DNA of 64,000 nt, taken from positions 62,001 to 126,000 of the forward strand of contig CBFHFQ010000029.1 of the NCBI GenBank assembly GCA_965655095.1, in the 5' to 3' direction. How positions within the stretch are numbered: the first letter of the stretch is position 1; every line of letters starts with the position of its first letter. Under the pieces are notes generated by a model, which saw only the letters and a list, made by a program, of their open reading frames with translations, did no database searches and had not been told where the DNA came from. A program made the position numbers and the translations under genes. Source of the DNA: Haplodiscus bocki. Lineage: Eukaryota. Below are positions 4,431 through 37,069 of the stretch, piece after piece.

Positions 4431-4544
4431 CTTACTTACAATCATTGTTCATGGAATGTAGTTGTTCGATATTATACTTTCCAAATGCAACTTTTTGATA
4501 TTTTCCACAGTCTTTTTTATACATCTCCCTTAATTAGGTTTTTA

Positions 4545-5190
4545 ATGCATCCCAATTGAATAGTTTTAAAGGAAAAAGAGCTAGCGGGGAAAAAGTGATC
4601 AAACCGAAAACCGAACACGTTTCACGTAATACTGGACTGACTCTGCTTCCAATCACAGAATCTCGAGTCAAGGAGAACGTATGAAGTTGAAAGTTTGCAT
4701 GTAGTTAGACAATCATCTCTACTATGTGTGTGCCAACTTTCATCCAAAATGGATAACTTTCAGGGTAAAAGGGCTAGCGAGGAAAAAAGTGGTCCAACCA
4801 AAAAGCACAAAATTCACGAGATGCTCGACCTACTCGGCTTCCAATCACAAAATCTCGAATCAAGGAGAGCGTATGAAGTTGAAAGTTTTGCAAGTACTTT
4901 GTCAATCACCTCTACAATGTGTGTGGCAACTTTCATCCAAATCGGACATTTTCAGGGTGAAAAAGTGGGCGAACCAAAACACACAAATTTCTTGAGATTT
5001 TCGAGCTACTCTGCTTCCAATCTCAAAATCTCGACTCAAGGGGAGAGTAGGGAGTTGAAAGTTTGCATGTACTTATTCAACCACTTCTACTATGAGTTTG
5101 TCAACTTTTATCTAAATCGGTCAAATTTCAGGGTAAAAGGGCTAGCGAGGAAAGGAGTGGTCAGGCTAAAAAATCATGAAATGTTCTTAT
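4545..5190. repeat. Diverged ~180-190-bp tandem repeat (about 3.3 copies) downstream of the pPolB
   Basis: The blocks GGGCTAGCGAGGAAA, CTGCTTCCAATCACA, GAAGTTGAAAGTTTGCATGTA and CAACTTTCATCCAAA recur with ~190-bp period. Confidence 0.8.
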
Positions 5191-13428: not shown

Positions 13429-13941
13429 CTAATACAGCATAAAAAGGTAAAATAAGTTTATTTCAGAGTTCTTCTGAGAGTTTCGGTTTTGAAGTATGTT
13501 TACGTTCAGAATAATGTTTAGGCTAGTGTGAGAGTAGTTTTCTGTCACCATGTCTGCCTCAGGGCTGTCGGGCTGCCCTGAGCGATGAAGAAAACACCCC
13601 CCTTCGGGATAAGGATCATTTGAGGATTGATCCCCATGAATTTCCCGGTTTTCTGAGTTGACGTTTCTAGACGTTCCTTGAATCACGGAACAAGTCCGCA
13701 CTTGTGGGTTAAGAAGAAACTCGTCAAGTTTCGACAACGCTCCCAAAATACGTGATTCCGTTTTGTTAAATTCTTTAGAAAGCTTCTTGGTTACCCTCCC
13801 TTCAATCTCCTCTGCGACTTGGGAGATGTAATCCTGGGTTAACTCAGGGTCAAGTACATTTCGTCCTCTACTTCCTCTGTTGCCTTCAGGTGTTTCTCTT
13901 GAAACTGCTGCTAATTTCCTCTTGTTTCTCAAAGTTGCCAT
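13429..13941 (-). CDS. LTR-encoded ORF (MATLRNKRKLAA...), probable Gag N-terminus; runs out of the LTR into flanking DNA
   Basis: Open from ATG 13941 through the LTR end at 13527 (138 codons) without a stop. Basic N-terminus and a helical segment. The last ~32 codons are low-information flank. Confidence 0.6.
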   Translation of the reverse strand: MATLRNKRKLAAVSRETPEGNRGSRGRNVLDPELTQDYISQVAEEIEGRVTKKLSKEFNKTESRILGALSKLDEFLLNPQVRTCSVIQGTSRNVNSENREIHGDQSSNDPYPEGGCFLHRSGQPDSPEADMVTENYSHTSLNIILNVNILQNRNSQKNSEINLFYLFMLY

Positions 13942-15291
13942 GGTTTTCAAAAGGGAAAATCTTGTCAGTGTTCAAGACTGAATTTATCTTTATTGTAATT
14001 AGTCAGTATCTTTTCAGCTTGAAGAATCAAGTTTCAATCGTATAAAGTCAAAAGATGATTTCAAAGAATGTGAAACAGTTGCAATGCTAAATAAATGGTA
14101 CAATACCGAAAGGCTACAATTTATATAATCCTAAGTGTACTTTCATTTCTCCTATTTATACCTTTCCTTGGCGGGAAACATAATTGTTTACACGCCAGAT
14201 CAAGGTACAAATAGGGAAAAGTACTTTAATCATATTATTTATAAAAGGAAAAGATGCCGACTCTGGCGGGAAATAAACACCCTTCCATCCATTTCTTCCC
14301 TCACGGACCGCGTCTTTTCCATCTTTCGACAGAAAAGAGTACGGTCCGATCCATCGGAAATGGACATCAAAGTGGTTATTCCCGCGCCGACACAATAAAA
14401 AACAACATAAACACAAGATCAAAGTCATTTCCATACAGGGAATAAATACAAAAATACAGTCGGAAATTAATCTAAAGTATGGAAAATTAAAGTTTACAGT
14501 CTAGGAAGATTCATGTTTTCATGTTTCATCGATTAAAACCACTGTTTGGAACAAGCTAGGCGTAAATCCTAGCCCGTTCCACATTTCTACTAGCCCACGG
14601 CGCACTTTGGCCGTGGCGGCACGTGGCGACTACGTAGCCGCTTGTAGCACTGCCTTCCGCAGTGCTACTGAGGAGAATGATTCTGGTGGCCACGTAGACG
14701 GCACGTATCCGACCAAAGTGGCGCAGCCTAATAGCACAGCGGATTGGCTGAGAATTCTAGTGACGTCACCAGATTAGTTACGAAGGAACACATACGGAAC
14801 AAACATTCACTTTTAAAGTCAAGCTCTGTTCTAATAGTTAAGCTATTGAAAACTTGTTGAAACTGTCAGTCTAAATAAATTACTGCACAATCAAAGGTGG
14901 CTTTATATAATAATTATCTAAATTAATGATACAAATAGCACTTATGATTAAAGTAAAATAGGGTGAATACTCGTTTGTTCCGCATCTATTCCGTCCCAAT
15001 AAGGATCAGTTCACCAGAATTACACGTATCGGATACGTGCTTTTATATGAAATAAATATTATGGGACGATACGTAACTACTACGTATCGTCTACATAAGT
15101 TACATGTATGCATACTAGGCGGATACGTATCTACTACGTATCCTTACATATAAATTGAGTTCATAGTTTAAATAAATGTTTGAGTATGTAAGTTCGGGCG
15201 TTTCTACAGTTTTAATCCCTGTTTGATGGACCTGGGATGTCCTTTGTTGAGGGGATCGTCTGACCGCAGGCTTCGCAGACATGCTGCGACA
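13527..15291 (-). mobile_element. Long solo LTR (1765 bp), element A
   Basis: Minus strand reads TGTCGCAGC...CTCTCACA, flanked by the 5-bp direct repeat GCTAG (13522-13526 and 15292-15296). No pol inside. Confidence 0.8.
14743..14768 (-). promoter_or_regulatory. CRE (TGACGTCA) plus CCAAT module in LTR A
   Basis: ATTGG at 14743-14747 and TGACGTCA at 14761-14768; the same arrangement occurs in LTR B. Confidence 0.5.
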
Positions 15292-15999
15292 GCTAGCGTA
15301 AATTAACATAGACCAGATGAAAGAACTGGTAACAAAAAATAATAGTCAAGAAATGAAAAGTATTGAGTTTTTTCTAGACAAAGAAAACATATTTTTTAAG
15401 AGGTTTTTGGGGCAACGATATCTGCCGAAGGAACTCCTTTTAGAACTCCAGTAAACAAGAAAATGACATTTTGAAGAAAACGGAATCCACTTCAAGGTTG
15501 GATGGAAAAATGATTTTTCAAGAGAATCACACAAACTGAAAGAATTATCTGTCAAAGTACTTTCATGATTAGAAGATCGATAAGGGAAAGTTTTTTTTTC
15601 TTCTACAAGTTTTTTTCCTCAAGGCGCGAATCAGAAAATGAACTGCGGATTTTATATAGGAGAAATCATCAGTGTGTTTTATAGAAGCTTCATATATTCT
15701 GAGGAAATGTTGTTATGCAACAAAAAAGTAGACAATGGTAGTCTTGCTTTTCTGGTAATATCACCTTAAAAAACCACAAAAGTCCACTTTTTGAACAGAA
15801 ATCATGTAATGTAATCGAAAGATTCCAACTCCTGTTGGAATTTATGTTACTGATGAGTTTGGTTGAACTTGATACCGCAAAAAGTTGGGTATGCAGAAAA
15901 ATACACCAGAACAAGGTGCTCTTCCTGCGGATGTTTCGATTTCTCAGTCGTATCTATTGGATATGAAAATCAATCATATATCGAAGGTGCTGTCAGAAT

Positions 16000-18200
16000 T
16001 CTTTATCGTTCATTTTTTGTATGTTATGCTGAGTATTGATGTGTTTTCGGGATAAAAAGTTTGAGGAATGAACTGTATCACATTTTCAAAAGTATAGAAG
16101 AAGAAGTTTTTGAGAAAAACTATGAAAAGTTTTTGAACTCTAAGACTTTTTGGTCGTGTAATAAGAGACCAAAAAAGTGACTTTTGTCAACTAGCAAAAA
16201 ACTTTACTTCGCTGAAACAACTTATCTGGAAAGACTTTAAAAATGTGAGAGATCACTGACATTTAGGAGCACATTCTTGAGGAATTGATCATTGATCGTG
16301 TAATCTGAAAAATGAAAATTAACAATCCATAATTGTTTCGATCTTCCATCACAACGTTAATGAGTATGGTTCCCCCTGATTTTTTTAGTTTTCTAAGACA
16401 ACAAACAGAATTTAAACTTCAGTTGAAAAATATTCCAAAAGCAAGCGAAAGTTAGTTACGTTTTACTGATACTTTTAGATTGACCAAAAAATCCCGATAA
16501 CTTCGCGAAACCTCTACAATGTAAACAGAATAAAATAACTTCATTTGAATTGTTTACTTACTCGCAAATTGTTGAAACCACTGTTGCGGTATCATATGCA
16601 GTACCAAGTCTGTTTTTCGACAAGTCAGCATTTTTTACGACTAGTTTGAAAAGTTAGAACATCATAGCAGGTGTCTGCTTCATTTTGCTTTTCAAAACCT
16701 ATACTCGCTTCTACAAATTGAATCATCAGAAGAGAAGTAGTTGCCAAAACACTTGAATCTTTAAAGAAGCTAAACATTGAAAGAAGGTTCGAATAAACAG
16801 CCTTGAACGAATACTCAGACGATATGTTTTCAGGCAGATAACTTTGAAACTTTTTTTAAACACATGTGCTGAAGAAGATGGAAAAATTCCATCACATTTT
16901 GATTCATTACCACAGTTTCATTAGACTGCAGGTTTAGAATACCTTGAAGTTAATTTTAAAATATAATAAGCTCGTGACTTTTTTGAAGGGGGAATTGGAG
17001 ACGCAATAGTGGAGTAATGAGCGATCGATATCTAAAATGCACTCTTTGGGATACACCGCAAAGGGGCACGGGGTGTCTTCTGCAAGGAAAAGCAGTAATG
17101 TTTAGAGATCCAATTTATCAGTAAGAACTTACTATTTCTGAGTGCTTACCAAAAATAGCTGAAGAACAACAACCCTGTTAGTCTAGAAAAACTGCTTTCA
17201 ACTCCAGAACATGCTGAAACGGGATTTTTTGTTGACGTCGAGCTAGAATATGCATTAGAAGTACGTCTCGAGATTCGCACTTTTTCATTCTGTCCGGCGA
17301 ACAAACAAAGAAACAAAACAAAGTTACACAGAGTTCATTTTTCTCCAAAAAGCTTCAAAAACAATCATTCACATAATGAACTAATACATAAGACACCAAA
17401 TATTTTTGTACTTTTTATCTATCAAACGTTTTCAATAAAAGAAGGTTTTCCATGTAAACGAGGAACGAAAGTACAGTAGTAACAGTTGAATCGAAAACTT
17501 TGACTTGAAACGATATTTGAAAAAAAAACACTAAAAATGAGGAGCAACACAGAAAGTATTTTTGTACTATTTTTCAGAATTAACATCTCAATTATCAACT
17601 CTTAGGAACGACTGTGGAAAATGTAACAAACAAAATGAAAGTTAAATGTATAAGAAACTAGAGGACGGAAAAAAGATGTCTGAGTAATTTTACGTCTGCT
17701 TGAAAACATTGGTTTGAATTTTTTTGCAGCTTTCAAAAATGAAAATAGGTGAAAAAATTGTGGTCAACCAAAATACAAAAGACTTTCAAATTAACATACA
17801 TCTAAACTTCTTGTGTTTGAAATGTTATATAAGAGATCGCTAGCTTTCTTCAGACAAAAAAGTTACAGCTACAATATCTAGATTGTGGTTCTTTTAAGGT
17901 TGGTAATGAAACAAATCAAAAATTCTAAGACTTAACATTCTTGGAAGTAAAAGAACGTACATACCTTTAGCTCAACCCAACAGAAACAGCCTCACTACAG
18001 TGAGAATTTTAGAACAATTGAGGTAATTGTCAAATAGAAAGCCAAAAGCACTTCGAGAGATGACTTCTGTGCAATGAGAGGAATTGCAATTGCTGTCAAA
18101 CGTCTTTATGAAGAAGAAAGTGAAATTTAACTGAACGGATGAACTACGACAGCTAGGACACAAATCAAATTTCAAGATATTGAAAACTGTCTCACTGGAG
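16000..18200 (+). pseudogene. polB: Heavily decayed protein-primed PolB with an endonuclease VII (HNH)-type insertion
   Basis: Motifs in order: VRDH*HLGAHS*GIDH*SCNL (16244-16307; cf. VRDHCHxTGxxRGxAHxxCNL), IFHHNVNEYG (ExoII), LRFTDTFRL, ADNFE, SLPQFH, FEGGI..SGVMSDRY, PEHAETGFFVDVELEY..FCP (~17204-17295), GTTVENV, SKLL, YLDCGSF (17875-17895, decayed motif C). Boundaries approximate. Confidence 0.7.
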
Positions 18201-19339
18201 AAGGAGAATATATAGAGGTTTCAAATGGCCCAATTAGTCAGAATAATATTCATTAAATCTTTTTTGAAAAATTTTTAGAGTTGCCGTGAATGTAATGGGT
18301 TAAAAGAAGAAAAAATCTCCATTCAGTTGCTAGTGAACTTCGGAACTAGACCGCAAAAGGAAAAGTAAAGTAGAATTTTCAGAATGTGACAAAAAAGTAC
18401 CTCTAAAGAAAATTGAACCACTTTTTGAGTTTGCAATAGTCCTTTTCTTCTCTCATACAACGCAACAATGTGAACGGAAATCAGCATTACCAATAAATCG
18501 TTGACTGATGTTTGGGCCTGAAGCAAAAATTTTGTCTCATCTCTGTTTTCATATCTACATTTTTCTAAAAACAAACTTTAGAACCTAGTAATTGCTTTCA
18601 ATAGAAGGTACAATATTATACCTTGGTATATCGGAAAACACTAGGGTTTTGGGTGTTTTTACCGAAAGTAATGTCAGAGGAGTACAATGTCTTGAATTAC
18701 ATTTTGACAACATCTATCTCTTCTTAAGGTTTTCCTGTACTTTGAACGCGGGTGCAGTCTTTCTTGAAAAGTTTTCCCACCTTTTTGATGGGGAGGTAGC
18801 TCTACATTGGAATATTTATTTCACTTGCTACAGAAAGAAACGAAGAAACGAATCGTTTCAGCTTTTCTTTCCGTGTAATATTTAGTTTAACTTGTCCATC
18901 TTTTATCTGAGGCTTCCGTGAAGAATACCACAAGATTTTTTAATTGCTACCGAATTTTCAGATTGTTTCAAGTGAACCTAAATCTTTTAGAATGTGTCAC
19001 GCTTGGTCTAACTTTTCCTACAAATTGATTTAGTTTTTATTCTAAACATTGATCATCTAAACTGTTTCATAAAACTTGATTATCGAAGAAATTGGTTGAA
19101 TGTCACTAGTTGCGTTGATTGTTTCGCACAGCACAATTATCTACTTTTAAACATAACATTTTTACCATTTACAGCGAATAGGCGTGTGATTCTTTATTTT
19201 GCCCCATGTTTAATCTAAGGAAGCAATATTTTGCTCTCAAATGCGCTATTCCCGACGTTTTTTTCCCAATGTCGGCCAATTGCGTTCACGCCAAAAAGCA
19301 ACATCGGCATGTTTGATCACGCTACCGAACGTGATATTA

Positions 19340-19700
19340 TTCCACCAAAATGAAGCAAATTTGCTGTAGAATGGCGTCTGGAACAATAGGAAGTCTCATT
19401 ACGTTCAAAAATTGGTTCTTTTTATTGAAAAAGTAGATGGGTTTTTCAGGAATGAATTCTCAGACTTTTGGAAATCGCCAAGATTAACAAATTTGCATTA
19501 AAATGCGCCTGGAATGGTAAGAATTCTCAAAACGTTCAAAAAAATTGGGTCTTTCCAGAAAAAATAGTTGTGTTCTTCGAAAGAAAACTTGAATTTTTTC
19601 AAAAAACCCAAAGGTAGCAACTTTGCTGGAGAATGCGTATCGAATGGTAATATTGCGTGGAAACGTCATTTCCGCCTTTAATGTGAAACATTATTAGCAA
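19340..19700. repeat. Diverged ~130-bp internal repeats, probably part of a non-autonomous interspersed element
   Basis: An AAATTTGC..AATG.G....GAA.GGTAA...ACGTTCAAAAA block recurs at ~19357, ~19489 and ~19619. Confidence 0.45.
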
Positions 19701-21019
19701 AAGTTCAGAAAACTTTGAACGAGGGAAAGGTTAGAGGATGTGATGGAGAAAAGGTGTTTTTTTTTGAAAAAAAATTGTTTACATGTTTTTAAAAGCCTTC
19801 TCCACAAAAATGGGAAAGCGCAATACATGCTGCTGGTAGCCGGCCATCTTGCTGTCTTCCAATGTGAATTGAGAGTTCTTTGTAAGTGTGACGTAGTCTA
19901 GGCATGAATTTTTTAACGTGATGAAATACTTTGTGTTTTTCCAATAACTGTTAGATTTTCATTTTCTCGCTACTTTGATATAAAACAATATGTTAATCTG
20001 ATTATGATTCTAATTGAAAAATCAGTATTATTAACAGCATTTGTAATTAGTTCAAAAACTTTTGATATTCATTCATTGAAAATCTGATGAAAGAATATCT
20101 TGCATTTATAAACAATTTTTATTTGAGATTTTGATGAACCTGAATTTAATATAGTACTGAGATAAAATTTTTTAAAGGAAAATTGTTATCTTTGAGAAAA
20201 GACTGCCAAAACCAGTGCAAACAAAGTTCGCAAGAAAGCTGAGGTTTCAAGTGTATTTTCTACATTGGTTGTTTTTGACTCATTACGAAAACAAAAACTG
20301 ACTTTATCCTGCGTTCTATTTTTATCAACGTTTCAGTAGTTATATTCTTCTTTAGTGACTCCTCTACAGCTTCATCTTTGTCTTCTTCGTGAGTTATGAA
20401 TACTTCTTCAGCTCTATTTTTATTTCGAGCGTTTACCTAAGCAGATTGTTTTTGTTACTAAACTTTTTATTGAATCTCCTAGGAAGATCAAAACAAAATC
20501 GTTCCAAAAAGTAAACGCCTCAAAACTTATGTCCAACTATTGTGGAAAATTAAGGATTAGAAGATTTCTTGCAATCAAACATACAATCAAGTACCATTAT
20601 ACACCCTTTGTTCTCATCAAGAGGGGATTGTTCTCCTTTCACCTCGTATTCACGATTCTGTTCAATACATCTAGTAATTATATGTATTCATTGATGATTT
20701 GATAGAAAAAAAACTTTGCCATCATAAGATTGCCTTCAGTAGGATACAGGAGGCAAACTATTAGGGATCTATAAGTTCTTTGTTAGTTTTATTAGGTTTG
20801 TTACGAGATTTTTCTGAAAAAAAAACAAGATTTGTTAACTTGATTGAACTGGGCTGTTTTGACAAGACGGACAGTCAACGTTTTTTTCTTCAAATGTCTT
20901 ACTTCTAAACTTAATGGTATAGAATTCATCATCGTCTAGACAGGTAAAAGAAAACTTTGGTCAACTGACACCGTAGTTAATGAAGTGGGAGAGAAATAGG
21001 AAAACTTGAGGGCGACGTT

Positions 21020-21453
21020 CCTGGAGAAGGTGCATGAGTTTTTTTTGGGAGAACATCTCGGAGACATTCTTAGAGAACTTCTTATAGATCTTTTCAGGAA
21101 AGTTCTCGGAGAAATGTCCGACAAGTTGACGACCAAGCTGAAGGAGAAGTCCCAGAAAAGATGTCTCAAAAATTGCCATAGGTGCTTTTGGAAATGTTCT
21201 CGGAAGCATTTTTCGAGAAGTTCTCGGAGAATTTCTCGGTGAAGTTTTTGGAGAAGTTCACGGAGAATTCCTCGGTGAAGTTTTTGGAGAAGTTCACGGA
21301 GAATTCCTCGGTGAAGTTTTTGGAGAAGTTCACGGAGAATTCCTCGGAGAAGTTCTCGGAGAAGTCCTCGGAGAAGTTCTTGGAGAAGTTCTCTGAGAAA
21401 CGTTCGGAAAACTTGTCAGAGATGTATTCGGAGAAGTTCTCGGAGAAGTTGTC
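21020..21453. repeat. 12-bp minisatellite (TCTCGGAGAAGT) with a 36-bp higher-order unit, truncated by an assembly gap
   Basis: Directly visible; GAAGTTTTTGGAGAAGTTCACGGAGAATTCCTCGG occurs three times from 21241. Confidence 0.9.
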
Positions 21454-21653
21454 NNNNNNNNNNNNNNNNNNNNNNNNNNNNNNNNNNNNNNNNNNNNNNN
21501 NNNNNNNNNNNNNNNNNNNNNNNNNNNNNNNNNNNNNNNNNNNNNNNNNNNNNNNNNNNNNNNNNNNNNNNNNNNNNNNNNNNNNNNNNNNNNNNNNNNN
21601 NNNNNNNNNNNNNNNNNNNNNNNNNNNNNNNNNNNNNNNNNNNNNNNNNNNNN
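21454..21653. other. Assembly gap (200 N)
   Basis: Run of N; its length equals that of the second gap, so the size is probably nominal. Confidence 0.99.
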
Positions 21654-22199
21654 TATCATTCAAAAAAGAGAATTTTGAGATCCCTAGATTGTTTAGTCTT
21701 TTCGGAAGTAATCTAAAAAAGCGTAAAAAGAAACTGTTTGTGGGAAAAATGAATGATCTGACAACTGTAATGTGTCTATATATATATAAAAGAGGAAAAA
21801 ATTTGTAAACCTATTTTTTTTCAGTGCACAACCTTGTGCAAGGAAATCAAGGAGATGGTCTGAAACTGTTACTAGCGAGTTTGAGCGGTGATTTCTGTAT
21901 ATCAGAAGAGCAAGTTTTAGTAAAGGTGAAAGTTTACACGGGAAACGGATAAAGTGACAATCAAAAATTTTTTTTGGAAACTTTTGCGGTCTTCTTCGAG
22001 AACTAATCAATAATTCAGTCGGTTTAGTCTCCGATTTTGTGGCCGTTTCGATAATGATTGTTTTTCTGTGACATCAAAGCTTGGGAATATTTGTTTTGTT
22101 ACGGGCTGGCTGTTTATCTGTTTCAATTTTTGGTTTCTTTCATGACGTAAACAGTTAATTTGACATTGATTTTTACAATTTCTATTGATTTGTGATTAG

Positions 22200-24300
22200 T
22201 TTGTCGAAGAGCATTGCAAATAGGTAAAATACTGTTATTTTTTGTTCGTGGAAAAATTTTTTTAAAGACTGGGTTGTCTTATCTTTTTTTGAGGCGTTTT
22301 GGGGTAAGGCTCTTTCTTTTCATGATGGTAATTTTTCCTGTGAGACGAAAATCCGAGGTTCTGGATATCTCGTTGGAAAAAATAGGTAAAACTGCTCAAG
22401 TCGCTCATCCCTCCGGGTTGAACGACGTTGATATCTACCTCTCCTGTCATATTGAATGTGAAAATTATTAGACTATTAAACTTATGATTCTGAAGAACTC
22501 GATGTGTGATAGTCAAGAAAAGAAATGTATGTGTTGTGAGATGAATTCTGTCAAGCTTCGCAATTGTAAAAAAATCGAGACTTTGAGTGGCTTAATTTTT
22601 TTATATCCCTTGCGGTAGGTTTCAATAGATGAAATTGTGCAAAAAACGTGATCGCGTTGTCATAAGATAACTTGTATGCATCCAAAAAAAAGATGCATTT
22701 GAATCATAGTGATCCTGCAAAAGTTCTGAAGTTTTTTTCCAGTTGGGCTCATCCATATTGACGTCAAACGAACTTCAAAATGTCGCAAGGCTTTTAAATG
22801 TTTGGTAATCAAAAGATTTTCAGTTGTTGAACCATAATCAAATCTGCTTAACGTAGATGGTAGAGTATCAGAAATTAAAATTGTTGTTTTTCCTTCCTCT
22901 TCTATTTTATATTTGAAGATTGAGAAGAAGTATTGTGAGCAACAGAGTAAGTAGCTTGATTGCGAAGGTTTCTGGATCAAATCATCTTCTTTTGGAGGTT
23001 TAAGTAAGATTAGAGAATTAGGACTTGTAATGGTCTGAACTACTCTGAAATTGTTCATTCAGTTTGTTTTCAACAGACTTGCAATGTAATAATTTAGGAA
23101 AAGCGTGTGGGTGAGTCGAAAAAAAAGAAAATCACTTATGGATGCTTCACAATTTTTTTTACTTGTATCTCAACATGAAAAGACTCGACTGATGTAAGAA
23201 CAGAAAATTTATGCCGAAGAACATATATTAGAAGAAAAACATGATTGACCATGTCCCAAGCTATTGCCTTTTCATATATAACCAAAGTCATCACAAAAGG
23301 TTGCATTCAATCGTAAAAATTTTTCATAACTTCAGGTAGTTTTGTTAAAGGCTGTGCCCTGCTCCAATATTGCAATCAGAAGATGTCCTTAAATTAAATT
23401 TTGCAAAGCTTTTGTTTTGTCTACGTAGAGACAAACTGCAAGAAAAACTTTTTTTGGATGCTGTTTTTGTCGGAAACAAGTGAAGTTACGTTCACAAAGT
23501 TTTCCCCAAAATCTTTCGAGGAAACATTTAAGTGGTCAAACTTGAATTCAGTCGAGCGTTTGTTTCAGAACAAAATTCTTACATGACAAATTTATCAATA
23601 ATTGTGCTCTAATCATAAACAAAAAAAACGCTGCAAAGGTTCATTGTTGGCTTCTTGAATTGTCAAACCGATGATTAGAAGTATTTGAGTCTTACATTCC
23701 AAACACGTGCACAGAGCCTTTGTTCTAACCAAATCAACATCCAATGTGCGGCTGTGTGTTCAGTTATGTAAAGTTGCCCAAATCTTTTGCAATGAAGAAG
23801 AATATATGATAACATGCCTTCTCTGAAAGGCGCATCTGAATTGTCAGGGTCGAGCAGACAATGAAAAAGGAACAGTGCTTTGTCTGTCACTAGGGATGCT
23901 CTCAGTGGATTGTGTGTTTCGTACTCCTACACAGTTTTGAGCTTGCAACCAAGTTCTTCTCTCGCCTTCTAAATCATGAGGGATTGCATTTCCCCGCCTC
24001 GGACTGAAATGAAACTGGCGGCTGATTTGTTTTTTGCTCCTGCTCCGGGATAATTTTTAGGATTTGAGACAGTCATTAGTTTTACATGCGCATTGTTTGT
24101 TGTCGATGGAGCTTGAACAATAGTCGGCTTCAAAAAAATTTCCGCATCGGTTGGTACAATCAGGTAGAAAGAACAGGGTATCATGATGATTTGACGGCAG
24201 CGTCTCGCAAATTCCTTCCAATTGCCTACGGCTGATTTCGTTTTCAAGGTGTACTCGGAGAAGATATTGAGCGTTCTGCGAGCACACAATGAAAAGCTTA
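22200..24300 (-). mobile_element. Possible decayed hAT transposase remnant
   Basis: EHTAAHWMLIWL (~23730-23765) resembles the hAT CxAHxLxL motif, and AVLPIFS...GFS (~22340-22395) resembles the dimerisation domain, in the right order. No TIR/TSD found. Confidence 0.3.
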
Positions 24301-25827
24301 CTTGGCTGGGTCACAATATTTTATCAGCTTCTGTTAACAGCTGTTCCACGTGAAGATGCCACATGTGCTAGCAAGCTGTAATGTATGAAAGTGATACTGC
24401 TGTTACCTTTTTTCCTAAGTTTTCATTTTTGGAGTGAATTCAGCACTTATAGAATGCTCGAGCAAAATTTTATATTTACGACGTGGCTGTATCATTCTTC
24501 GGAAGTTCAGTTGAGCATCGTTTAATCCTGCGTCGGAGTGTTCAGTGTTTTTTTCCACTCTCCGAATCAACTGATTCTCCAAAGTTGACATATTTCACTC
24601 TTTGTTGAACAAGTTGTCACAATTCGACTGATGAACAAATATATGTCAAAAGCAGCTAGGCGAGGTGTCATATACGCCTTTTAGTAAATTTATTCAAAAA
24701 AATTCAGTTTCAGATGATTCTGTGTTTTGACCTGTTCGAGATTGAGAATTTTTGGTTTGGGAGTCAAAAAATGCGGCAAACTTCCTTCCTTTTTACTAAT
24801 TTTGTATATCAAATCAATATCATTCTCAATTTTGTAACTCACTTGCTAAAAACTATGGTTTTTTTCTGGAAACAACCATCGATCGTTCTGACAGCATTCA
24901 TCAACCTCTTGCATATGACATTTCAAGTAGGGGTAACTTACATTACCACTGAGAATTTGATACATAAACAATACTGAAAACTATAAACCTAATATTATTT
25001 TAATGAAAACATTTGAATACTTCCACAATATTTCCATTTCACTCAAAGTTACCATGAAGTTGTATATCAGATTGAGCCTATCTGGAATGTAGATTAAAGA
25101 TATCTTATCAGATTGCTTTTTACTTTTAGAGGCCTTAGTGTTACTTAACCACACCGTAAGACCTAATATCACAATAAATGGTTCCATTGCATAGCGTTTT
25201 CGGTTTCGGTTTGCTTCTGACGTTTAGAAGCTTCCCAAAAACTTAGTGAGACTTAATCATCAGTTACTGAGTATTTAGACTACGTTCTGCCTGTCGACGT
25301 ACTTTGGTTTTAAATGAAACAAAAATCTCGACTTGGATTTTCGTTTGAAACGTTTTTTGCTGTTTTTTTTCGAAGGGTCGATGTCCGTTAAGTTTAAGCT
25401 TCTTAAGCGAGGCAGAGCAGCTCTGCCTTGTCTACAAGAAGTTTTTTATTGGCATTTAATCACCAAGAAGTTCTGAAACGGAAAAATGTTTCAACAACTT
25501 TCAAAAGCTTGCCCTCAGAGGACTCATGAAAGACCCAACTGACTTAAAAGTTAAAATTCCAGAACTTCTACTGGTTTAATCACTGGGAAAATAGAAAAAG
25601 AAAAAATAGATGAGAAATACTCAAATTTTATGACTATTGATCCTATTGTCATCAAATAAGAACGTCTGGAACAAATTAAAATTCGGAGAAAATTCTGTTT
25701 TTACTACTTTTTCTGCAAGACTTCTTAGTTTTTCAGCTGTTGGTCTTCAAGGAGGCTCATTTTTGCCCATTCGGAATGATTTGTCGTCATTTTAAAACTA
25801 TATTTGCATAGGATTATAGAATATTTT

Positions 25828-26421
25828 TCAATAACTCTGGAATGAGTCAACACCACTGTGATGAGTGTATGGTTGCCGGTCAAAATGAGCTTCTGGGACC
25901 GACAATTCACTTACCTCGTCTGTAATATTGTGTCGAGTCTCATCATTCACTTTTGATACGCCTAGCGTACCACTGTTTCCAGTTGCGTTTTCAAAAGGAG
26001 TATCAATCCCTACATGTTCCCTACGTTCTGAATTTAAAGACACGCTTGTCACATCCCGTCCCCAAGATGCATTTATTGACCTAACTGCTAATTCATTTTT
26101 AGGAGCAACAATGTTATCGACGGCGGTCAAAATTGCATTCTGTATCCTATCTTCAACTGTATCAACAATATAGTTCATTTCTCTATCGATCCTTTCATTA
26201 AAACACCTCTCTAGAGTTTTCACATTCATCGCGTTTCAATTATCAACTGAACTGTTACTAAAAGTACCAACGGTAAAATCCCGGTCATTGGAGCCTTCAT
26301 TAACCACATTATTTTCTTGTCTCTCACTAGCAGCGTTGCCAATAACTAAGTCTTGATCGAAGTCATCTAATTGGCTGAGAAGCCTTTTGTTTGACTGCCT
26401 TTTGTTGCGAGTGGAAACCGT
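25828..26421 (-). pseudogene. LTR-encoded ORF ((M)VSTRNKRQSNKR...), decayed, running out of LTR B
   Basis: ACG (presumed mutated ATG) at 26421 is in frame with ORF 26229-25828. One internal TGA near 26236; otherwise open through the LTR end at 25857. Confidence 0.55.
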
Positions 26422-27414
26422 GTTTGTGTTAATAACTGAACTGTTCTTGAGATTATAGAATTAACAGTAACATAAGAACTCAATGATAACTTTACAAAAC
26501 GATGCTTGCTAAGGATTTAAACAATCAACGATTAAATTGTAACAGTTTAGGTGATTGTTGCAGAAAACTGTTTTTTAGGATGGCAATTTTTTTTCTGTCG
26601 ATGGTTTTTGTCAGTAGTAGGTCACCCTTTCCTTTGTTTGACCTGGCATTCGTCAACCAATTGGGTGGCTCTATCTGCTGACGTCATGATCGCCATTCTA
26701 TTTTTAATCAACACATCAAAAGGCTTAACCCGAGTTTTACATTTCATCATCATGACATCACTTTAATAATAGAAAGAAAACAAACTTCAAAGAAGGAATA
26801 CCGAAAAATCATGACTATCAAAATATGGTTATGAAAACTGGATAAATGGTAAAGGTCAAGAAAATTATGTTTGCATTCGTGATTCATTGTTATGGGCGGT
26901 CATTTTTGGCTATATTATACTAAATATGACAAGAATATTGACAATAAACTTCATGCACAGGTTTTAACTTTGAGCTAAAATATAGTGGTCAAACGTGGGC
27001 ACTATGACCGTCTTTTGACCAGATAATAATTTTGACTTGGGATTCATTAATAATTAGCGCTAGGTAATTTATTATCACATAATTAAATAATTATATGCTT
27101 ATATAAGTACATAGCAACGTCTTTTAATTGAATATGGTTACTTTAGCCTTTCTGACTTCATTTGGCCGTAATTCGCCTTTTGTTTAAAAACGACCACTCG
27201 CTTTGAGCAAAGTGGTCAAAATTAGGTCCTTGTGACCAATTTTGACCACACTCCAGCAGCGCTGTTGCTTGGGCAAAATTTTGACAACAATACTTGTTTT
27301 GACCAATCAAATTTAAGTAAAAAACTGCAAGTCAATTGAGCACTATAAGCATTTATTTATGTCCGTTATAATTGGCGGAGTAGAGTAGGCTGTCACAGGC
27401 GGCAGCCTGCGACA
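25857..27414 (-). mobile_element. Long solo LTR (1558 bp), element B
   Basis: Minus strand reads TGTCGCAGG...CATCACA, flanked by the 5-bp direct repeat ACCAC (25852-25856 and 27415-27419). It has the same termini as element A. Confidence 0.8.
26660..26686 (-). promoter_or_regulatory. CRE (TGACGTCA) plus CCAAT module in LTR B
   Basis: ATTGG at 26660-26664 and TGACGTCA at 26679-26686. Confidence 0.5.
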
Positions 27415-28188
27415 ACCACTTCCTGCCAGTGAATATATTATTGAACAAGACGATTGGATACCATAGGGAAAGTGTCCGTGCTACATTTTTTGGAAACTCC
27501 TCTTAATGAAAAGAGGTGTACTTCAGGGAGCAATACCATTTTGGACGCAAGTTTGCTCTCATTTGGAGGTAGAAAATCGCGCAACTTTCCCCAAGAATCG
27601 CGCCACTGAAAAGTTAGCATACAAAAACGCACGCAATGGGGGATGGTTTTTCTCCCATAATTAAAAATGCGCAGAAATTGAGAATGCGAGTTGATCAAAA
27701 TTTAAAGGTGCAAACAACAGCTTTTTTGACATGCTGCTTTAATTGCGAACAAGAGCCTTCAAGAAGCGATTATTCTAATATACACTTATCATTCGTATTA
27801 AATGTTTCCAATGATGAAATTAAATATTTATCGGATTCTTGAAAGATAAAAATATAAACAAAGTTAAAAAAAGAGCGATTTTAAAATATTCGAAATTCGG
27901 TTTCAAAATATAATTTTTATACGATTGTTTGGACTTCGTAAATTTTGGGAAGCGGTAGAAAGTTTGAAGATAGTTCCACCCAAAACATATGTTTTTGCTG
28001 TTTTTAGGGATAACATGCAATGTTTATGTAACAGATACAAATTATGTAATGCATTATAAGTTACAGGGATGCAAAGGATCAGATTCAGGAGTTAGAAATT
28101 GAGAACCAATTGCATTTTACAATTCTACAAAAAAAACTGGCGATGGAAGTGATGGTTGAAAAATATGGAAAAAACTGATTGAACTCAC

Positions 28189-28310: not shown

Positions 28311-28842
28311 TGTTGACGATAAGACGGAAATCGCAAAGAAAAATAAAGAAGTTTTCAAGAATTTGTTACTTTGAACTTTGTTTCTATCAAACTTTGTTTT
28401 CGAATGATTTATCACAAAAAGTCAGTTTTACAAGGAAAGAAATACCTGCAAATAATTGTACACAACTAGGTTATCCTACGGGTCTGGAAGAAAAGTTCAA
28501 GGGCGGATAGGGTTAATATTTCATATATATTAACCCTATAGTTCTACGTTTAATATTGCATAATAAGAGTAATTCAGTTTCAGTTGTGACAATTCAGTTC
28601 ATGATGAATTCTTGGCTACTGACATAATCTTCATTTCTTGGGTTCATGTTGTCTAAGTTGAAGGTTATAGATGACGGTAGTATTCGTAGGCCGGGCAGGT
28701 ACTTGGTTTCAGTTCACTTCATCTTGGTTGCTTGAATTGAGAGGTTGCTTTGTTGACTGCTGCTGTTATTGATGCTGTTTCTATCAAGGCCAACAAGCTT
28801 GCAAACATCTCGGTAAGTGAACAGTTTCATTGATCGTTAACA
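28311..28842 (-). repeat. copia 3' LTR
   Basis: TGTTGACG...CGTTAACA on the + strand; near-identical to 33027-33558. Confidence 0.97.
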
Positions 28843-28853
28843 CACCCCCTCAA
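28843..28853 (-). promoter_or_regulatory. Polypurine tract TTGAGGGGGTG
   Basis: Abuts the 3' LTR. Confidence 0.9.
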
Positions 28854-31800
28854 TGATGCTGTACTGATTGACAAAAGAGGTCACATCTGAACTGATTGAA
28901 CTTGGGGCGGCCAAGGGCTTTAGTCAAAATATCTGCAATGTTCTGATCCGTTGGTATATATCGTAACTGAATGACTTCCCGCTCCACAAGGTCCCGTACA
29001 AAGTGATGTCTGATGTCGATGTGTTTGCTTCGGCTGTGTGTGATTGGGTTTTGAGCAAGCTTGATCGCCCCGTGATTGTCACCTTGGAGGAGAATAGGGC
29101 CACCTAGATCTAAGCCTAAACTCTTTACAAGAGACAAAAGGTAGACACATTCTTGAGAAACTAAAGAAGTACTCATATATTCTGCCTCAGTCGAAGATAA
29201 TGCTACCGTTTGCTGTTTACGGGAAGACCAACAAATCACACTACTATCATCAGAAATTCTAAAACAATAGCCACTCGTGGAACGCCTATCATTGGGATCC
29301 CCTCCCCAATCAGAGTCACAGAAACCAACTAACTTGAGGCATTCACTATGCTTAAAGACAAGTCCTAAGTCAAAGGTACCTTTCAAGTAACGAAAAACTT
29401 TCTTAGCTAAAAGCCAATGATCATGAGAAGGATTCTTAAGTAATTAAGACGAAACTACAAAACTCAAATCGGGACGGGAAACAACTGAGAGGTAATTCAA
29501 TTTTCCAACTAAAGACATATACAATGAACGAATTTTAGACAAATCTTTGAAAGTATCGGATTCCAAATCAGGACAAGAACTTTTGTCGATTCTAGTATTT
29601 GCTGTCATAAGGAGATCACAAGGATTGCAATCAGACATACCAAAGCAAGACAATAAGTCTAAAATGTAAGACTTTTGTGAAAAAGATATTTTACCAGGTG
29701 ATTGATCAACTGAAACACCCAAAAACCACTTCATTGAACCTTTGTCTTCAATCTTGAACTTTTCGGAGAAACACTTCTTGAAAGATTCGGCTAAATCAGA
29801 AGAAGTTGAAAAGTATATTATATCATCAACCCACACACATATGAATAATCTGTTACCACTCAAATCGCTCTTGGAGTAACAACAACTATCAATCATTGAA
29901 CGTGTTAGACCGAATTCACTTAAAAACTTATCGAGGGTTCTGTTCCAACAACGTCCGGCTTGTTTTAAACCATAAAGTCCTTTTAACAACTTGCAGACTA
30001 ATTTCGATCCCTTTCCGGGAATTTCAAAGCCTGGAGGTTGTTCTACATAAACATCTTCCTCTAAGTCCGCATTTAGATAGGCCGAACTAACATCAAATTG
30101 AAAAACTTCACAATGAAAATGAGTAGCAAGTGCTAAAAGCATACGAATTGATGACAATTTAGCTGTAGGAGCGAATGTTTCTAAATAGTCACTGCCAAAA
30201 ATTTGATTAAAACCTTTCGCAACATAACGAGCTTTATACTTGACAATTTCACCGTTCTCATCTTTTTTTCAATGCAAAGACCCAACGCCCACCTAAGGAC
30301 TTTTTGTGTGCTGGAAGCTCACAAAGTTCCCAAGTCTTGTTATCTACTAATGAATTGAACTCTTTGGTCATCGCTTCTAACCATTCGTCTCTCGATTGTG
30401 ACCTTTTAACTTCCTCCAAAGAGTTAGGGACCGCTTCACACGAAAAACATTCAACAAATGAAACGTTCTCAGAATTATCAATAGGACAACCATACCGCTC
30501 AACAGCTTTAACATGGCGACCGCTACGTGTTCGGAATTCCGCATAAAGATCAGGATTTGAATTTGAAGTCGAAGACTCTGGCACAGGTGAAGTCTCTTGA
30601 GTGCGTGAATCATCATTTTCAGCAACCGATTTCAATGGCTTAGGAGACACTTGTTCTTCTTCAACATCTAAGGAACTCTTGGGTTCTGGAAGAAAAACAG
30701 TCTTCTGAAAAACTGCTTCCAGAGCCAAGAAATTCCTTTTCGTTAAATGACACATTTCTCGAGTGACTAATCTTACCAGTAACTGGATTATACAAATAGT
30801 AGGAATCATGAGTGCGACCATATCCAACAAAGATTTCTTTGACAGCTTTAGAGTCCAACTTTTTCACACCCACTTCGAGGAATCGGAACGCCGAGCAACC
30901 AAAAACTCTCAAGTTTGACAAATCTGGCTTACGACCATAAAATAATTCAAAGGGAGTCTTATTGGGAGGCAAGCTACAACTTAAACAACGATTCGTCAGG
31001 TAAAACGCCACATCAACGGCTCTCACCCAAAAGGAGTTAGGCAAATTAGCTTGTTTCAAAAGACACCTAGCCATGTTTCCAACAGTTTGCCAACGACGCT
31101 CAGCAACACCATTCTGATGCGGGGAATAAGGGGCAGTCATTTCCCGCTTAATGCCTTGCGAAAAACAAAACTCATCAAATGCTTTGTTATCATACTCGCC
31201 TCCACCATCAGACCTCAACGTCAAAGACGAGAATGTCTTAGGTACCCCTTCATCAATACAAAACTGGCGAAATTTTTCCAAGACTTCTGACTTATGTTTC
31301 ATGAAATAAGCACGAGCGAAGCGACTGTAGCTGTCAATGAAGCTCACAACATACCGATGTCCACCTAAAGAGGTAGTTTCCATTGGACCCCTAACATCGG
31401 AATAAACCAATTCCAACTTCGAAGACTTTCGCAAAGCCAACTTAGAACTGGGAGGTTTAGGATTCAATTTGTTTTCAGCACAAATGTCACAAAAAGACTC
31501 CGAGAAACTTGAATTGTGCAATTTCATTCCTTGAACCGACTTTGATAACTTTTGAACATCGCGTTTGTTATTGTGACCCAATCTGCAATGCCAAAGATCA
31601 AGATCAACTTTACACGTGCTAGAAAAGTTCGAAGAACAAACTGGAAAAGCTTTAGTCACATACAAGCCATTCCTTTGAACAAAAGGAAAAGAAACTTTAT
31701 CAGAACAATGAAGCTCACAAGTATCATCAAAAACAACTTTCGCACCCTTTTGACCAAGTGCACTCACACTCAACAAATTTCGCGAATGATCAGGAACATA

Positions 31801-31930
31801 AAGGCAGTCACTTAAATTCAGCACATGAGATACACCTCGTTTGTCAAGCAAAAAAATTTTGGCAACACTTTGCCCTTTCACAGGTGAAACACTGTTATTT
31901 GCATTCACACAAATTTTTGAAGAAACTTTT
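28850..31930 (-). pseudogene. pol: copia Pol (partial protease, integrase, RT, RNase H), frameshifted
   Basis: LYVPDHSRNLLSV, WHCRLGH, VYSDVRGP, RSDGGGEY, PHQNGVAER, YKARYVAKGF, LYGLKQAGR, WVDD, CDSDWGG, SSTEAEY, KHIDIRHH, ADILTKAL. Confidence 0.95.
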
Positions 31931-32014
31931 CGAACAATCAGAACCACAATAGAAAGAAAACTCACAACTCTGCGAAAAATTAGTCTTATTCTCAGACTTT
32001 TTATCCAATTTTGA

Positions 32015-32757
32015 CTTTTGAAAACACTTAGACTCATTGTGTCCAAACTTCTTGCAAAAAAGAGCACTGTTTAACTGTACAAGAACTTTTCATATGCCCG
32101 CTCTTGTTGCAGCGAAAACATTTACCGGAAAATTTCTTAGAATTATCTCGCGAAACAAACAACGCTGCGTCTGACTTAGTGTTACGAGTTACCGCAATCT
32201 TTCAATTTCTGCGAGTCCGCAAAATTTTTGAGAGCCTTTTTCAAATCAGAAAACGGAGTGGGAGTTTTTGAGAAATCGTGCACCGTCTTAAAATACTCAT
32301 AGCTATCAGGCAAACCCTTAAGAACAACGGAAACTAACAACTTTTTTGAAATCTTCTCCCCTGCTACTTCTAATGAAGACGAAAGAGTCTCGGCTCTGAT
32401 CAGGTAGTCCGTCATCTCCTCAGCTGGCTTCAACGACAGAGACGTTAGCTGCTCAAGCAAGTTCATCACACGCGGCGTCTCTGAACTGGAGAAGTGTGCT
32501 GTCAACCGCTTCCATGCTTCTGGCCCATTTCCTTTGCATTCTGACTTCAACATCATGATAGACCGTTTGTCCAAACACTGCACAAGTTCAGCCCAAATGT
32601 TGTACTTCTCGTCATCGTTGGATGCGTCAGTTCCCAACAGTTGTCCTCGCAGCTTTTTGGTGTGCATGTAGCCTTCAAACTTTTCGCTCCAGTAGGCGAA
32701 GTCATCTTCTTCCCCAGAGAACTGAACACATCGTCGTTTCTCTGCTTCTGTTGCCAT
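32015..32757 (-). pseudogene. gag: copia Gag with two CCHC zinc knuckles (frameshifted)
   Basis: ORF 32757-32182 (W..K, VLKGLPDSY), then CFRCNKSGHMKSSC and CSFCKKFGHNESKC in shifted frames. Confidence 0.9.
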
Positions 32758-33012
32758 TTCCTTGCCGCAGATGAAACAAATTTTTTGATCAGTACACTTA
32801 CTGAATCGAATATCCTTGTTCTAACAAAAAAAACACGCTAGCTAGCTGGTCAGGCCTTTACACCTCTTACCAAAAAAAACTGCTCCAAAAAAATTGGTTC
32901 CGTTGAATCTGCTTCTTCCAAAATACACTGTTGGGTTCTCACCAAAGTTGTTGAGTCAAAGTCCAGTCCAGAGGAAAAATAAATCGGCTATTCTAAACAA
33001 AAAACAGGGGGC

Positions 33013-33026
33013 CTGGGCCCATAACC
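33013..33026 (-). promoter_or_regulatory. Primer binding site GGTTATGGGCCCAG (half-tRNA-iMet type)
   Basis: Immediately follows the 5' LTR CA on the minus strand; matches the PBS type of Drosophila copia. Confidence 0.9.
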
Positions 33027-33558
33027 TGTTGACGATAAGACGGAAATCGCAAAGAAAAATAAAGAAGTTTTCAAGAATTTGTTACTTTGAACTTTGTTTC
33101 TATCAAACTTTGTTTTCGAATGATTTATCACAAAAAGTCAGTTTTACAAGGAAAGAAATACCTGCAAATAATTGTACACAACTAGGTTATCCTACGGGTC
33201 TGGAAGAAAAGTTCAAGGGCGGATAGGGTTAATATTTCATATATATTAACCCTATAGTTCTACGTTTAATATTGCATCATACGAGTAATTCAGTTTCAGT
33301 TGTGACAATTCAGTTCATGATGAATTCTTGGCTCCTGACATAATCTTCATTTCTTGGGTTCATGTTGTCAAAGTTGAAGGTTATAGATGACGGTAGTATT
33401 CGTAGGCCGGGCAGGTACTTGGTTTCAGTTCACTTCATCTTGGTTGCTTGAATTGAGAGGTTACTTTGTTGACTGCTGCTGTTATTGATGCTGTTTCTAT
33501 CAAGGCCAACAAGCTTGCAAACATCTCGGTAAGTGAACAGTTTCATTGATCGTTAACA
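33027..33558 (-). repeat. copia 5' LTR
   Basis: About five substitutions versus the other LTR by eye. Confidence 0.97.
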
Positions 33559-34440: not shown

Positions 34441-35948
34441 CTAAATGACAACAACAACAAATGATTGAAAAAGATTTAGATTTGATCATTCCACTCTCTG
34501 AAGTGGCCTTTCGTGGAATGCTCAATACTTTTAGATTAAAATTAATTCAACTGAATGAAAAGTGCTTAAAGTCTCGCAAGGGAAACGTTATCATAGACTT
34601 CTCAACGTCTGACTTTCTGCAAAACTTTGCAATTCCTGCCAGGAATCCTGGATTCTTGTATTGCAGAACTTCGTGGCAGGAACCTTTCATTGCTGGATAA
34701 TCTTCACTTATCTAGCAGGATCCAGGATTTCAAACGCTGGGATTGCATATTAATAGGGTGCAGAAGTTTTTGTACATACCAGTCTTCACAAAGCAATACA
34801 CTTAAAAATTTTGATCTGATTGTCAATAAATTGATGAGTGCTTTTCAAGAACACAAACCGAAATTTTCGACGAGATTGCGATTCAAAAACTTGACACGAT
34901 CCTGCAAATAATTTTAAGAAATCAAAGTTGACCTTTTGTGAATGTCTAGTCCTGAAAACCTGTTCGTAATAATAGAAACTAAAGCTCAAATTGTGAAAAG
35001 AAGTTGGCAAAAAAACCTTTTCTAACTTTTTTTGAAAACTTTTTCAGAACGTAAAGGTCATTAACACAATTCCAAACGAGAAATATATTTTTCAGCTGGT
35101 ATAAACTGATCAATTATATTTTCACCGGCCCATGACTTTTTGAAGAAAAAAATGTTTCACTAAAATTCCTTTTTAGAACGTTCTATTTATGCTATTTAGC
35201 CGTTCAAAAAGAACATTCAGTTTCAAAAGTTTAACAAGCTCAAATGCTGATTATGAAACTTTGCCATTGGGAGCAACTTTCCCCAAAAATCTTGGTTCAG
35301 TCAAAGGAGTTGGGTAATAAATTAGTTGAGCAAAATGCCTTTCTGATTTTTTGCAAAAATAGTAAGGATTTGTGGAAAAACATACTTTCTGCAAGAATCA
35401 TAACGTAGTCAACACTTAGGGACTATTAACATTGCTTTTTGTTGTGAAATCAAACGTTCAATTCCTGGTAGCTTTCTTTGACTTTCAGAATGTTCGACTC
35501 TGTAGTTTTTCGATAGTTTCCGCAAAAAACACATGACTCTATCACACAAACTGTTTTCACTGACACTCTTATGCAATACATACTTAATTTAGAGAAGATG
35601 TTGTTGAAATACTATTGCGCAAAAGTAGATTTTGTATGCATTCTCCATTTATAAACTTTGCAAATGCTTATGATATCGATATAAAATTGAATTTGAAATA
35701 CTACTGAATTAGAGACTGGCTGTCTTCCTGATGAGTTAGAATTAGAACCACCTCTGAGATCGCATTGTTTTGGGAAAATTAGCGTACGTTGGTTTTGGTC
35801 CATAGAAGGAATTTGGCCATTCATGAAGCGTGAAAGGAAAACTAAAGAAACGAATTTTGAAACGGATAAAGAGGGGCTATCATGGCTCAATACAGTTTAT
35901 TATTGCAGCTTGTAATTTTATGTTTACTGCTTAAGTTGTGCGTAAATC

Positions 35949-37044: not shown

Positions 37045-37069
37045 GCGTAAATCAGAAGGTTGTTCTCAC

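What the first reader, a model, noticed from the sequence alone, without database searches (positions are those of the whole stretch)
13527..27414. Two long solo LTRs that each carry an ORF starting inside the LTR and running off its 3' end
Seen: two 1.6-1.8-kb elements share TGTCGCAG...TCACA ends and 5-bp TSDs, with no obvious internal similarity. Each has an ORF opening with a similar basic motif (MATLRNKRK / (M)VSTRNKRQ) 415-565 nt before the end and still open at the terminal CA. Known: gag usually starts downstream of the 5' LTR/PBS. Inference: a family in which 140-190 codons of Gag (or an accessory protein) are encoded within the LTR, so every solo LTR is a portable promoter + ATG + coding module able to fuse with host DNA.
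Basis: partly seen in the sequence, partly recalled or inferred. Interest (0 to 1): 0.75.

Follow-up and report, generated by a model that had tools for sequence, protein, structure and literature searches.

The report
Retrotransposon ends that carry gag's start
These two repeats are leftover ends (solo LTRs) of two sister retrotransposon families whose capsid gene starts 130-190 codons inside the end repeat, so each leftover carries a cut-off gene start, which most likely just decays rather than making useful new proteins.

Summary
Both elements are solo LTRs with exact 5-bp TSDs, from two high-copy sister families. The ORF is the start of gag: relatives either scatter into unrelated flanks exactly at the terminal CA (96 of 97 fit the predicted codon phase) or read on through the primer site (CA|TGG, translated H-M-V-T-G) into a capsid and two zinc knuckles. 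One DNA contig shows PPT-LTR-PBS-gag-frameshift-pol with a Gypsy-type RNase H-integrase. LTR-encoded codons 1-85 are under purifying selection between lineages (dN/dS 0.07). Not supported: function of solo copies. Copy-private changes look near-neutral, run-off tails look random, and the second copy has lost its start and holds a stop. Precedents exist in yeast copia elements (Ty1 about 14 codons, Tca5 about 100). Extras: in-frame duplications of the LTR/primer junction likely shift the LTR end, and a second ORF enters the LTR's other end. No paired-LTR copy, RT or RNA was seen. New variant of a known kind.

The parts
13527..15291 (-). E1, solo LTR of family 1 (1765 bp, TGTCGCAG...TCACA)
   Evidence: 79% identical over 1483 columns to the LTR of contig L001
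13522..13526 (.). E1 target-site duplication GCTAG, left copy
15292..15296 (.). E1 target-site duplication GCTAG, right copy
13528..13941 (-). First 138 codons of gag inside E1; base 13527 is the first base of the next codon, which in intact elements is the A of an ATG completed by the PBS
13429..13526 (-). Run-off of the E1 frame into flanking DNA, to the stop at 13429-13431
13542..13550 (-). PBS-like 9-mer inside E1, 24 bases from its end; part of a 24-base in-frame copy of the LTR-end/PBS junction (likely a former junction)
   Evidence: 20 of 24 bases match the L001 junction unit
13989..13994 (-). Only AATAAA in E1, 53 nt before the gag ATG; inferred poly(A) signal near the R/U5 border
   Evidence: L001 has one 61 nt before its ATG; E2 has none at the equivalent place
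14155..14160 (-). TATAAA in the block best conserved between E1 and L001 (86-96% identity); inferred TATA box, one of 5 TATAAA matches in E1
15212..15291 (-). Last 25 codons and stop of a second ORF that in L001 (7518-8249) reads across the polypurine tract into the LTR; holds a CxxC
   Evidence: 76% identity over 25 aa, E 9e-9
25857..27414 (-). E2, solo LTR of family 2 (1558 bp)
25852..25856 (.). E2 target-site duplication ACCAC, left copy
27415..27419 (.). E2 target-site duplication ACCAC, right copy
25858..26421 (-). Decayed first 188 codons of family-2 gag; no ATG at the family start position, stop at 26236-26238
27391..27414 (-). 10-bp stem hairpin at the very start of E2; shorter hairpins at the same place in E1 and L001
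   Evidence: shuffles folding as well: 2 of 200 for E2, 11 of 200 for L001, 27 of 200 for E1; role unknown

Best explanation
E1 and E2 are solo LTRs of two sister LTR-retrotransposon families, likely Ty3/Gypsy, in which gag starts 130-190 codons inside the LTR and reads through the LTR end and primer site into the capsid, so each solo LTR keeps a cut-off gag start that likely decays without function. Shown: ends, TSDs, read-through into capsid and zinc knuckles, PPT before and PBS after the LTR, a slippery heptamer with pol in another frame, purifying selection on codons 1-85 between lineages. Inferred: transcription starts after the TATA-like box about 190 nt before the ATG; the poly(A) site lies just before the ATG, so U5 is nearly all gag; reverse transcription primed about 600 nt from the cap copies this gag piece into both LTRs; the 3' copy lies past the poly(A) site and is not translated; LTR-LTR recombination leaves promoter, poly(A) signal, ATG and an ORF that is open only because it was cut from mid-gene. 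Also inferred: the junction unit duplicates in frame, because it lies in gag, and priming at a downstream copy moves the LTR end a few codons further into gag.
For:: 5841 of 5864 candidates related to the E1 ORF., 119 listed relatives: 97 diverge after the terminal His, all 97 tails different, 96 of 97 with a next residue whose codon can start with A (controls 39 of 96, 36 of 93); 16 continue M-V-T; 6 unparsed. E2 family, 120 listed: 46 diverge (41 of 46 fit; control 17 of 45), 66 continue, 8 unparsed; 1000 longer relatives, modal length about 550 aa, 70 of 120 start MATLRNKR, DUF1759 above cut-off in 12 of 12 tested; residues 233-395 match retrotransposon and retroviral capsids (top 35 rows; best Z 10.4, rmsd 8.2, 153 aligned; C-terminal domain Z 9.5, rmsd 2.1, 81 aligned). 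L001 has purine tract - 1792-bp LTR - TGG start - gag (ATG 388 nt inside) - TTTAAAC - protease. RT_RNaseH, Integrase_H2C2, rve in that order; dN/dS 0.071 (bootstrap 0.03-0.14) for codons 1-85; column conservation 0.94 for residues 29-85 against 0.945 for capsid in 51 long Gags; 551 of 575 MVT-like motifs follow H, D, N or Y (codons that can end AC; background 17%; copies are not independent); rare variants 1.6 per site in conserved against 2.5 in variable parts, shared variants 0.05 against 0.66 (Fisher p 7e-6); 71 solo-type copies end after one repeat and 26 after two.
Against: No locus with two LTRs around an internal region was seen; L001 holds one LTR between the end and the start of the internal region and may be a collapsed, tandem or circular assembly. 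RT is missing from L001, so the superfamily rests on RNase H, integrase and frame structure; the best Gag Pfam hit, DUF1759, is one I recall from BEL/Pao Gags. dN/dS comes from one pair, with dS above 1. 'Solo-type' proteins cannot be told from 3' LTRs of full elements. The protein sets are top-scoring hits, which biases against decayed copies. E2 shows no AATAAA or TATAAA at the places seen in E1. Start and poly(A) sites and the tRNA primer are unmeasured. The Gag model is poor overall (mean pLDDT 42).
Confidence: 0.8

Rival explanations
1. Same architecture, but solo LTRs are expressed and their truncated Gag (basic tip plus long helix, no capsid) works, as an inhibitor of particle assembly or as the start of chimeric host proteins.
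For: Thousands of copies keep an open frame; the TATA-like block is the best conserved part of the LTR; rare variants are still about a third fewer per site in the conserved part; tails are slightly longer than random (median 20 against 13 aa). LTR-donated start codons are known in mouse oocytes (PMC5538554, passages) and a truncated Ty1 Gag restricts transposition (PMC4551931, search listing only).
Against: 50 of 121 rare variants in the conserved part are radical, like those in capsids of long copies (130 of 289); E2 has lost start and frame; mean tail 24.6 against 20.9 aa random, and cluster representatives may favour long products; an AATAAA precedes the ATG in E1 and L001.
Confidence: 0.12
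2. The elements are BEL/Pao rather than Gypsy LTRs, with the same gag-in-LTR layout.
For: DUF1759 is the top Gag family in 12 of 12; 5-bp TSD fits either.
Against: Pol half hits RT_RNaseH, Integrase_H2C2, rve and weakly Integrase_p58_C, with no Pao-specific family listed; nearest solved sequences are foamy virus and Ty3 integrases; gag and pol are in separate frames; Retrotrans_gag also hits.
Confidence: 0.05
3. Gag really starts at the junction Met (A|TG) and the LTR ORF is a separate or untranslated upstream frame.
For: The junction makes an ATG in every family; LTR-encoded segments of families 1 and 2 are not detectably homologous.
Against: The frame is continuous from the LTR ATG in the long Gags; dN/dS 0.07 and capsid-level conservation need translation; junction repeats stay in frame. 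It may still describe the ancestral state, with U5 gaining coding capacity, which I could not tell from the PBS moving into gag.
Confidence: 0.03

Closest known systems
Candida albicans Tca5 (Ty5-like copia element; PMC4139406, section 11 read)
   Same: The gag-pol ORF extends from inside the left LTR: first in-frame ATG 382 bp into a 685-bp LTR, about 100 codons before its end.
   Different: Copia, single ORF, low copy with very few solo LTRs, start used in vivo unclear. Here Gypsy-type, frameshifted pol, 129-195 codons, selection shown, thousands of copies.
Saccharomyces Ty1 (PMC5454406, passages read)
   Same: GAG AUG follows a 53-nt UTR and the PBS (nt 95-104) lies inside GAG coding sequence.
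   Different: About 14 codons, not 130-190; copia; no in-frame junction repeats mentioned in the passages seen.
Plant Gypsy elements with extra 3' ORFs: Grande, RIRE2, Retand (PMC7264820, passages read)
   Same: Long stretch between pol and the 3' LTR with antisense ORFs, as in L001 (about 5.9 kb).
   Different: L001's antisense ORFs are bounded by splice-like sites, and a sense ORF crosses the PPT into the LTR; seen in one contig only.
Mouse MT/MaLR solo LTRs donating promoter, first exon and start codon (PMC5538554, passages read)
   Different: There expression and a protein are shown; here neither is, and the donated piece would be a long selected Gag segment.
Ty3/Gypsy (Metaviridae) in general
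   Same: TG...CA LTR, PBS, PPT, capsid plus CCHC Gag, frameshift, PR...RH-IN order.
   Different: Gag normally starts after the PBS (established knowledge); clade not assigned.

Membership tests
LTR retrotransposon, solo LTR | TG...CA ends with a 4-6 bp TSD around one repeat | tested here: met
LTR retrotransposon | PBS next to the LTR 3' end | tested here: met
   TGG-starting motif with no spacer in L001; conserved as MVTG in 27 of 40 representatives with enough upstream sequence
LTR retrotransposon | PBS complementary to a host tRNA 3' end | not testable with these tools
   no genome held; no tRNA in the window
LTR retrotransposon | Polypurine tract before the LTR 5' end | tested here: met
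   L001: 12 of the 13 bases before the LTR are purines; one contig only
LTR retrotransposon | Two LTRs around gag-pol at one locus | tested here: inconclusive
   L001 has one LTR with internal sequence on both sides; no other DNA locus found
Ty3/Gypsy (Metaviridae) | Gag with capsid fold and CCHC knuckle | tested here: met
   two CX2CX4HX4C motifs seen; zf-CCHC below cut-off in 9 of 12
Ty3/Gypsy (Metaviridae) | pol order PR-RT-RH-IN | tested here: inconclusive
   protease (weak, E 0.008) follows gag and RH precedes IN; RT is not in the contig
Ty3/Gypsy (Metaviridae) | RT groups with Gypsy; named clade | not tested
   no RT sequence obtained
BEL/Pao | Single gag-pol ORF (definition recalled) | tested here: not met
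   gag ends in a stop after TTTAAAC and pol is in another frame
BEL/Pao | DUF1759 in Gag (association recalled) | tested here: met
   12 of 12 above cut-off; Retrotrans_gag hits the same stretch
Ty1/copia (Ty1, Tca5) | Integrase before RT-RH | tested here: not met
   RH precedes IN
Ty1/Tca5-like layout | Gag start codon inside the LTR, PBS inside the ORF | tested here: met

The most novel reading that the evidence does not exclude
A whole animal Gypsy clade whose LTR is coding at both ends, whose 3' border ratchets into gag by in-frame primer-site duplications, and whose thousands of solo LTRs make capsid-less Gag fragments that police the element or seed chimeric host proteins.
Probability: 0.12. 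Interest if true: 0.8.

Novelty: new variant of a known kind. Interest (0 to 1): 0.5.

Why it matters
It shows that an LTR's U5 can be almost wholly protein-coding and under protein-level selection across a clade of at least six Gag lineages (inferred from the shared junction motif; DNA seen for family 1 only). The translated primer site records its own duplications in the protein, which makes primer-site choice and LTR growth testable from sequence. Practically, solo LTRs of such families yield thousands of spurious 'orphan genes' (5841 clusters for one family here), and pipelines that look for gag after the PBS would truncate it. If even a few solo copies are translated, they are a ready source of dominant-negative Gag or chimeric genes.

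Tried and rejected
No genome held; L001's record not searchable. Pfam found nothing on the LTR-encoded ORFs. ESM Atlas gave only scores under 0.9 for the E1 ORF and for an L001 antisense ORF (BED/hAT-like zinc finger as a lead only). No related loci in viral contigs or genome contigs; 11 motif matches in viral contigs were unrelated by blastn and tblastn. No RNA holder listed, which says nothing on expression. Reads were laid on E2 only; no contig joining across the whole element was among the joints shown, and 250 joints were not shown. Self-priming as in Tf1 (recalled): no complement of the PBS 6-mer inside E1, E2 or the L001 LTR. DNA transposon reading rejected: no terminal inverted repeats beyond TGT...ACA, and the ends join PBS and PPT. 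Common origin of all LTR-encoded segments not shown: family 2 matches P0433 and P0443 (85%, 70%), family 1 matches P0462 weakly (13%), the other pairs with families 1 and 2 under 2%. No host gene recognised by eye among ORFs of 70 aa or more in 5200-25800; short exons would be missed. Literature: 10 searches; (gag starting in the LTR, overlap phrases, multiple PBS, the PBS motif) returned 0 papers, searches gave listings; exact-phrase search of an open-access library is weak evidence of absence. I guessed an acoel host from recall and read passages of PMC6451197 (Gypsy 28.2% of that genome); the host was not established. Passages of PMC3601003, PMC6875170 and PMC8220671 added nothing on gag in LTRs. 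No supplements were read. Earlier findings: none.
Full report
Observation. E1 (13527-15291) and E2 (25857-27414) lie on the minus strand, start TGTCGCAG, end TCACA and are flanked by exact 5-bp duplications; they share no DNA similarity beyond the ends. E2's limits are confirmed by public runs: summed contig depth jumps about a thousandfold inside it, and 178 and 154 loose ends with many different sequences stop at base 25857 (depth is not a copy number). E1's ORF has 138 codons from ATG to the end.

What the ORF is. The E1 ORF has 5841 related protein clusters of similar length (120 listed). Of 119 listed relatives, 97 agree up to a terminal His and then go on in 97 different tails, 16 go on with a shared M-V-T sequence, and 6 could not be parsed. 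If the LTR ends CAC-A, the next codon must start with A; 96 of 97 tails fit, against 39 of 96 and 36 of 93 at the next two positions. For E2's family 41 of 46 fit (control 17 of 45) and 66 of 120 continue M-V-T. The longer relatives (1000; 992 for E2) are Gags of about 550 and 570 aa that begin at the LTR ATG, carry DUF1759/Retrotrans_gag and two CCHC motifs, and end in ...LN. The capsid part of a predicted model matches copia, MLV, PNMA2, PEG10 and Arc capsids; the LTR-encoded part is one low-confidence helix, residues 32-76. The two families are about 40% identical overall, mostly in the capsid, so they are sisters.

DNA of an intact junction. One metagenome contig, L001, reads: RNase H-integrase half of pol (1-2292), about 5.9 kb of extra sequence, a purine tract, a 1792-bp LTR 79% like E1, TGGTGACAGG with no spacer, gag (ATG 388 nt inside the LTR), TTTAAAC, then protease in another frame. 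One LTR with internal sequence on both sides is what a collapsed, tandem or circular assembly gives, so paired LTRs are implied and not seen. The pol domains and separate frames point to Ty3/Gypsy; RT is absent, so no clade is named. The host is not established; the runs that hold E1 are labelled coral or marine metagenome or are coded organisms.

Selection. Between E1 and L001, codons 1-85 have dN/dS 0.071 (bootstrap 0.03-0.14, Fisher p 1e-16); codons 86-138 have 0.70, not different from neutral (one pair, dS above 1). In 51 long Gags residues 29-85 are as conserved as the capsid. But in 97 solo-type copies rare variants fall on conserved sites at 1.6 per site against 2.5 on variable sites, whereas shared variants fall at 0.05 against 0.66. 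Selection therefore acts in the replicating lineages, and inserted copies mostly drift. Tails past the LTR end (median 20, mean 24.6 aa) are close to random flank (13, 20.9). Limits: top-hit bias, and 3' LTRs of full copies are mixed in.

How it likely works. A TATAAA in the best conserved block lies 219 nt before the ATG and the only AATAAA 53 nt before it (L001 alike; E2 shows neither at these places). I infer U3 about 1160 nt, R about 160 nt and U5 about 445 nt, nearly all gag. The LTR end is set by where the tRNA primes, so a primer site inside gag puts the gag start into both LTRs. Recombination then leaves what the window shows.

The junction. The last A of the LTR and the PBS spell M-V-T-G. 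The motif occurs 36 times in 5968 residues before the capsid and twice in 6122 after it, in 27 of 40 distant representatives, after 114-195 residues in five further Gags on four other branches of a 16-row capsid tree (2 of 18 chosen rows dropped, capsid start not matched). 551 of 575 such motifs follow H, D, N or Y, whose codons can end AC. So the layout is likely clade-wide, although DNA was seen for family 1 only and the LTR-encoded segments of families 1 and 2 are not detectably homologous. The junction unit is tandemly repeated in frame, 0-4 motif matches per long Gag in family 1 and 0-9 in family 2 by a loose pattern. E1's last 24 bases match a PBS-plus-LTR-end unit at 20 of 24, 26 of 97 solo-type copies end after two repeats and 71 after one, and P0269 ends three repeats later than most family-2 copies. 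I infer that priming at a downstream copy extends the LTR; downstream copies left unused also exist (P0122).

The other end. In L001 a 244-codon sense frame crosses the purine tract and stops 77 bases inside the LTR; E1 keeps these 25 codons (76% identity) while the DNA that follows diverges. E2's start does not show a matching peptide.

Comparison. Ty1 has a 53-nt UTR and its PBS at nt 95-104, inside GAG (PMC5454406, passages). Tca5's ORF can start 382 bp into a 685-bp LTR (PMC4139406, section 11). So gag-in-LTR is known, in yeast copia elements. I found no paper on a Gypsy or animal case of this size or on in-frame PBS repeats, which is weak evidence. Antisense 3' ORFs are known in plant Gypsy elements (PMC7264820, passages), and LTR-donated start codons in mouse (PMC5538554, passages).

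Verdict. Real; a new variant of a known kind. Architecture about 0.9 likely, Gypsy about 0.9, junction ratchet about 0.6, functional solo-LTR products about 0.12. Interest 0.5.

Noticed in passing
window 28311-33558 (-): Full-length copia element: 532-bp LTRs 99% identical, TSD ACTCC, gag, integrase, RT, RNase H in several broken frames.
   Followed up: partly
L001 2754-7124 (-): Antisense ORFs between pol and the LTR, bounded by GT...AG splice-like sites; one holds a C2H2/BED-like zinc finger. May be an intron-bearing antisense cargo gene; one contig only.
   Followed up: partly
L001 7518-8249 (+); window 15212-15291 (-): Acidic, Ser/Pro-rich 244-codon frame with terminal CxxC crossing the PPT into the LTR; no Pfam hit.
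   Followed up: partly
window 27391-27414, 15273-15289; L001 8175-8191: Hairpins at the very start of all three LTRs, strongest in E2.
   Followed up: partly
solo-type proteins P0002-P0120: 62 of 97 have Ser or Arg right after the terminal His, which suggests G is preferred as the first base of the target site.
   Followed up: no
protein P0037: Its run-off tail reads after about ten residues into the translation of another LTR's start, i.e. two LTRs about 30 bases apart in one direction.
   Followed up: no
window 400-4500 and 52200-62700: Broken ORFs that look, from recall, like Polinton/adintovirus polymerase and capsid pieces; no significant Pfam hit.
   Followed up: no
window 47919-48485 and 63054-63623: Inverted pair of about 570 bp, 88% identical, around the AT-rich 49-63 kb block; may be terminal repeats of a large DNA element.
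   Followed up: no
window 21196-21450; 4574-5163; 35948-37045: 24-bp coding-like tandem array beside an N gap; a 176-bp tandem array; inverted 15-bp arrays about 1.1 kb apart.
   Followed up: no
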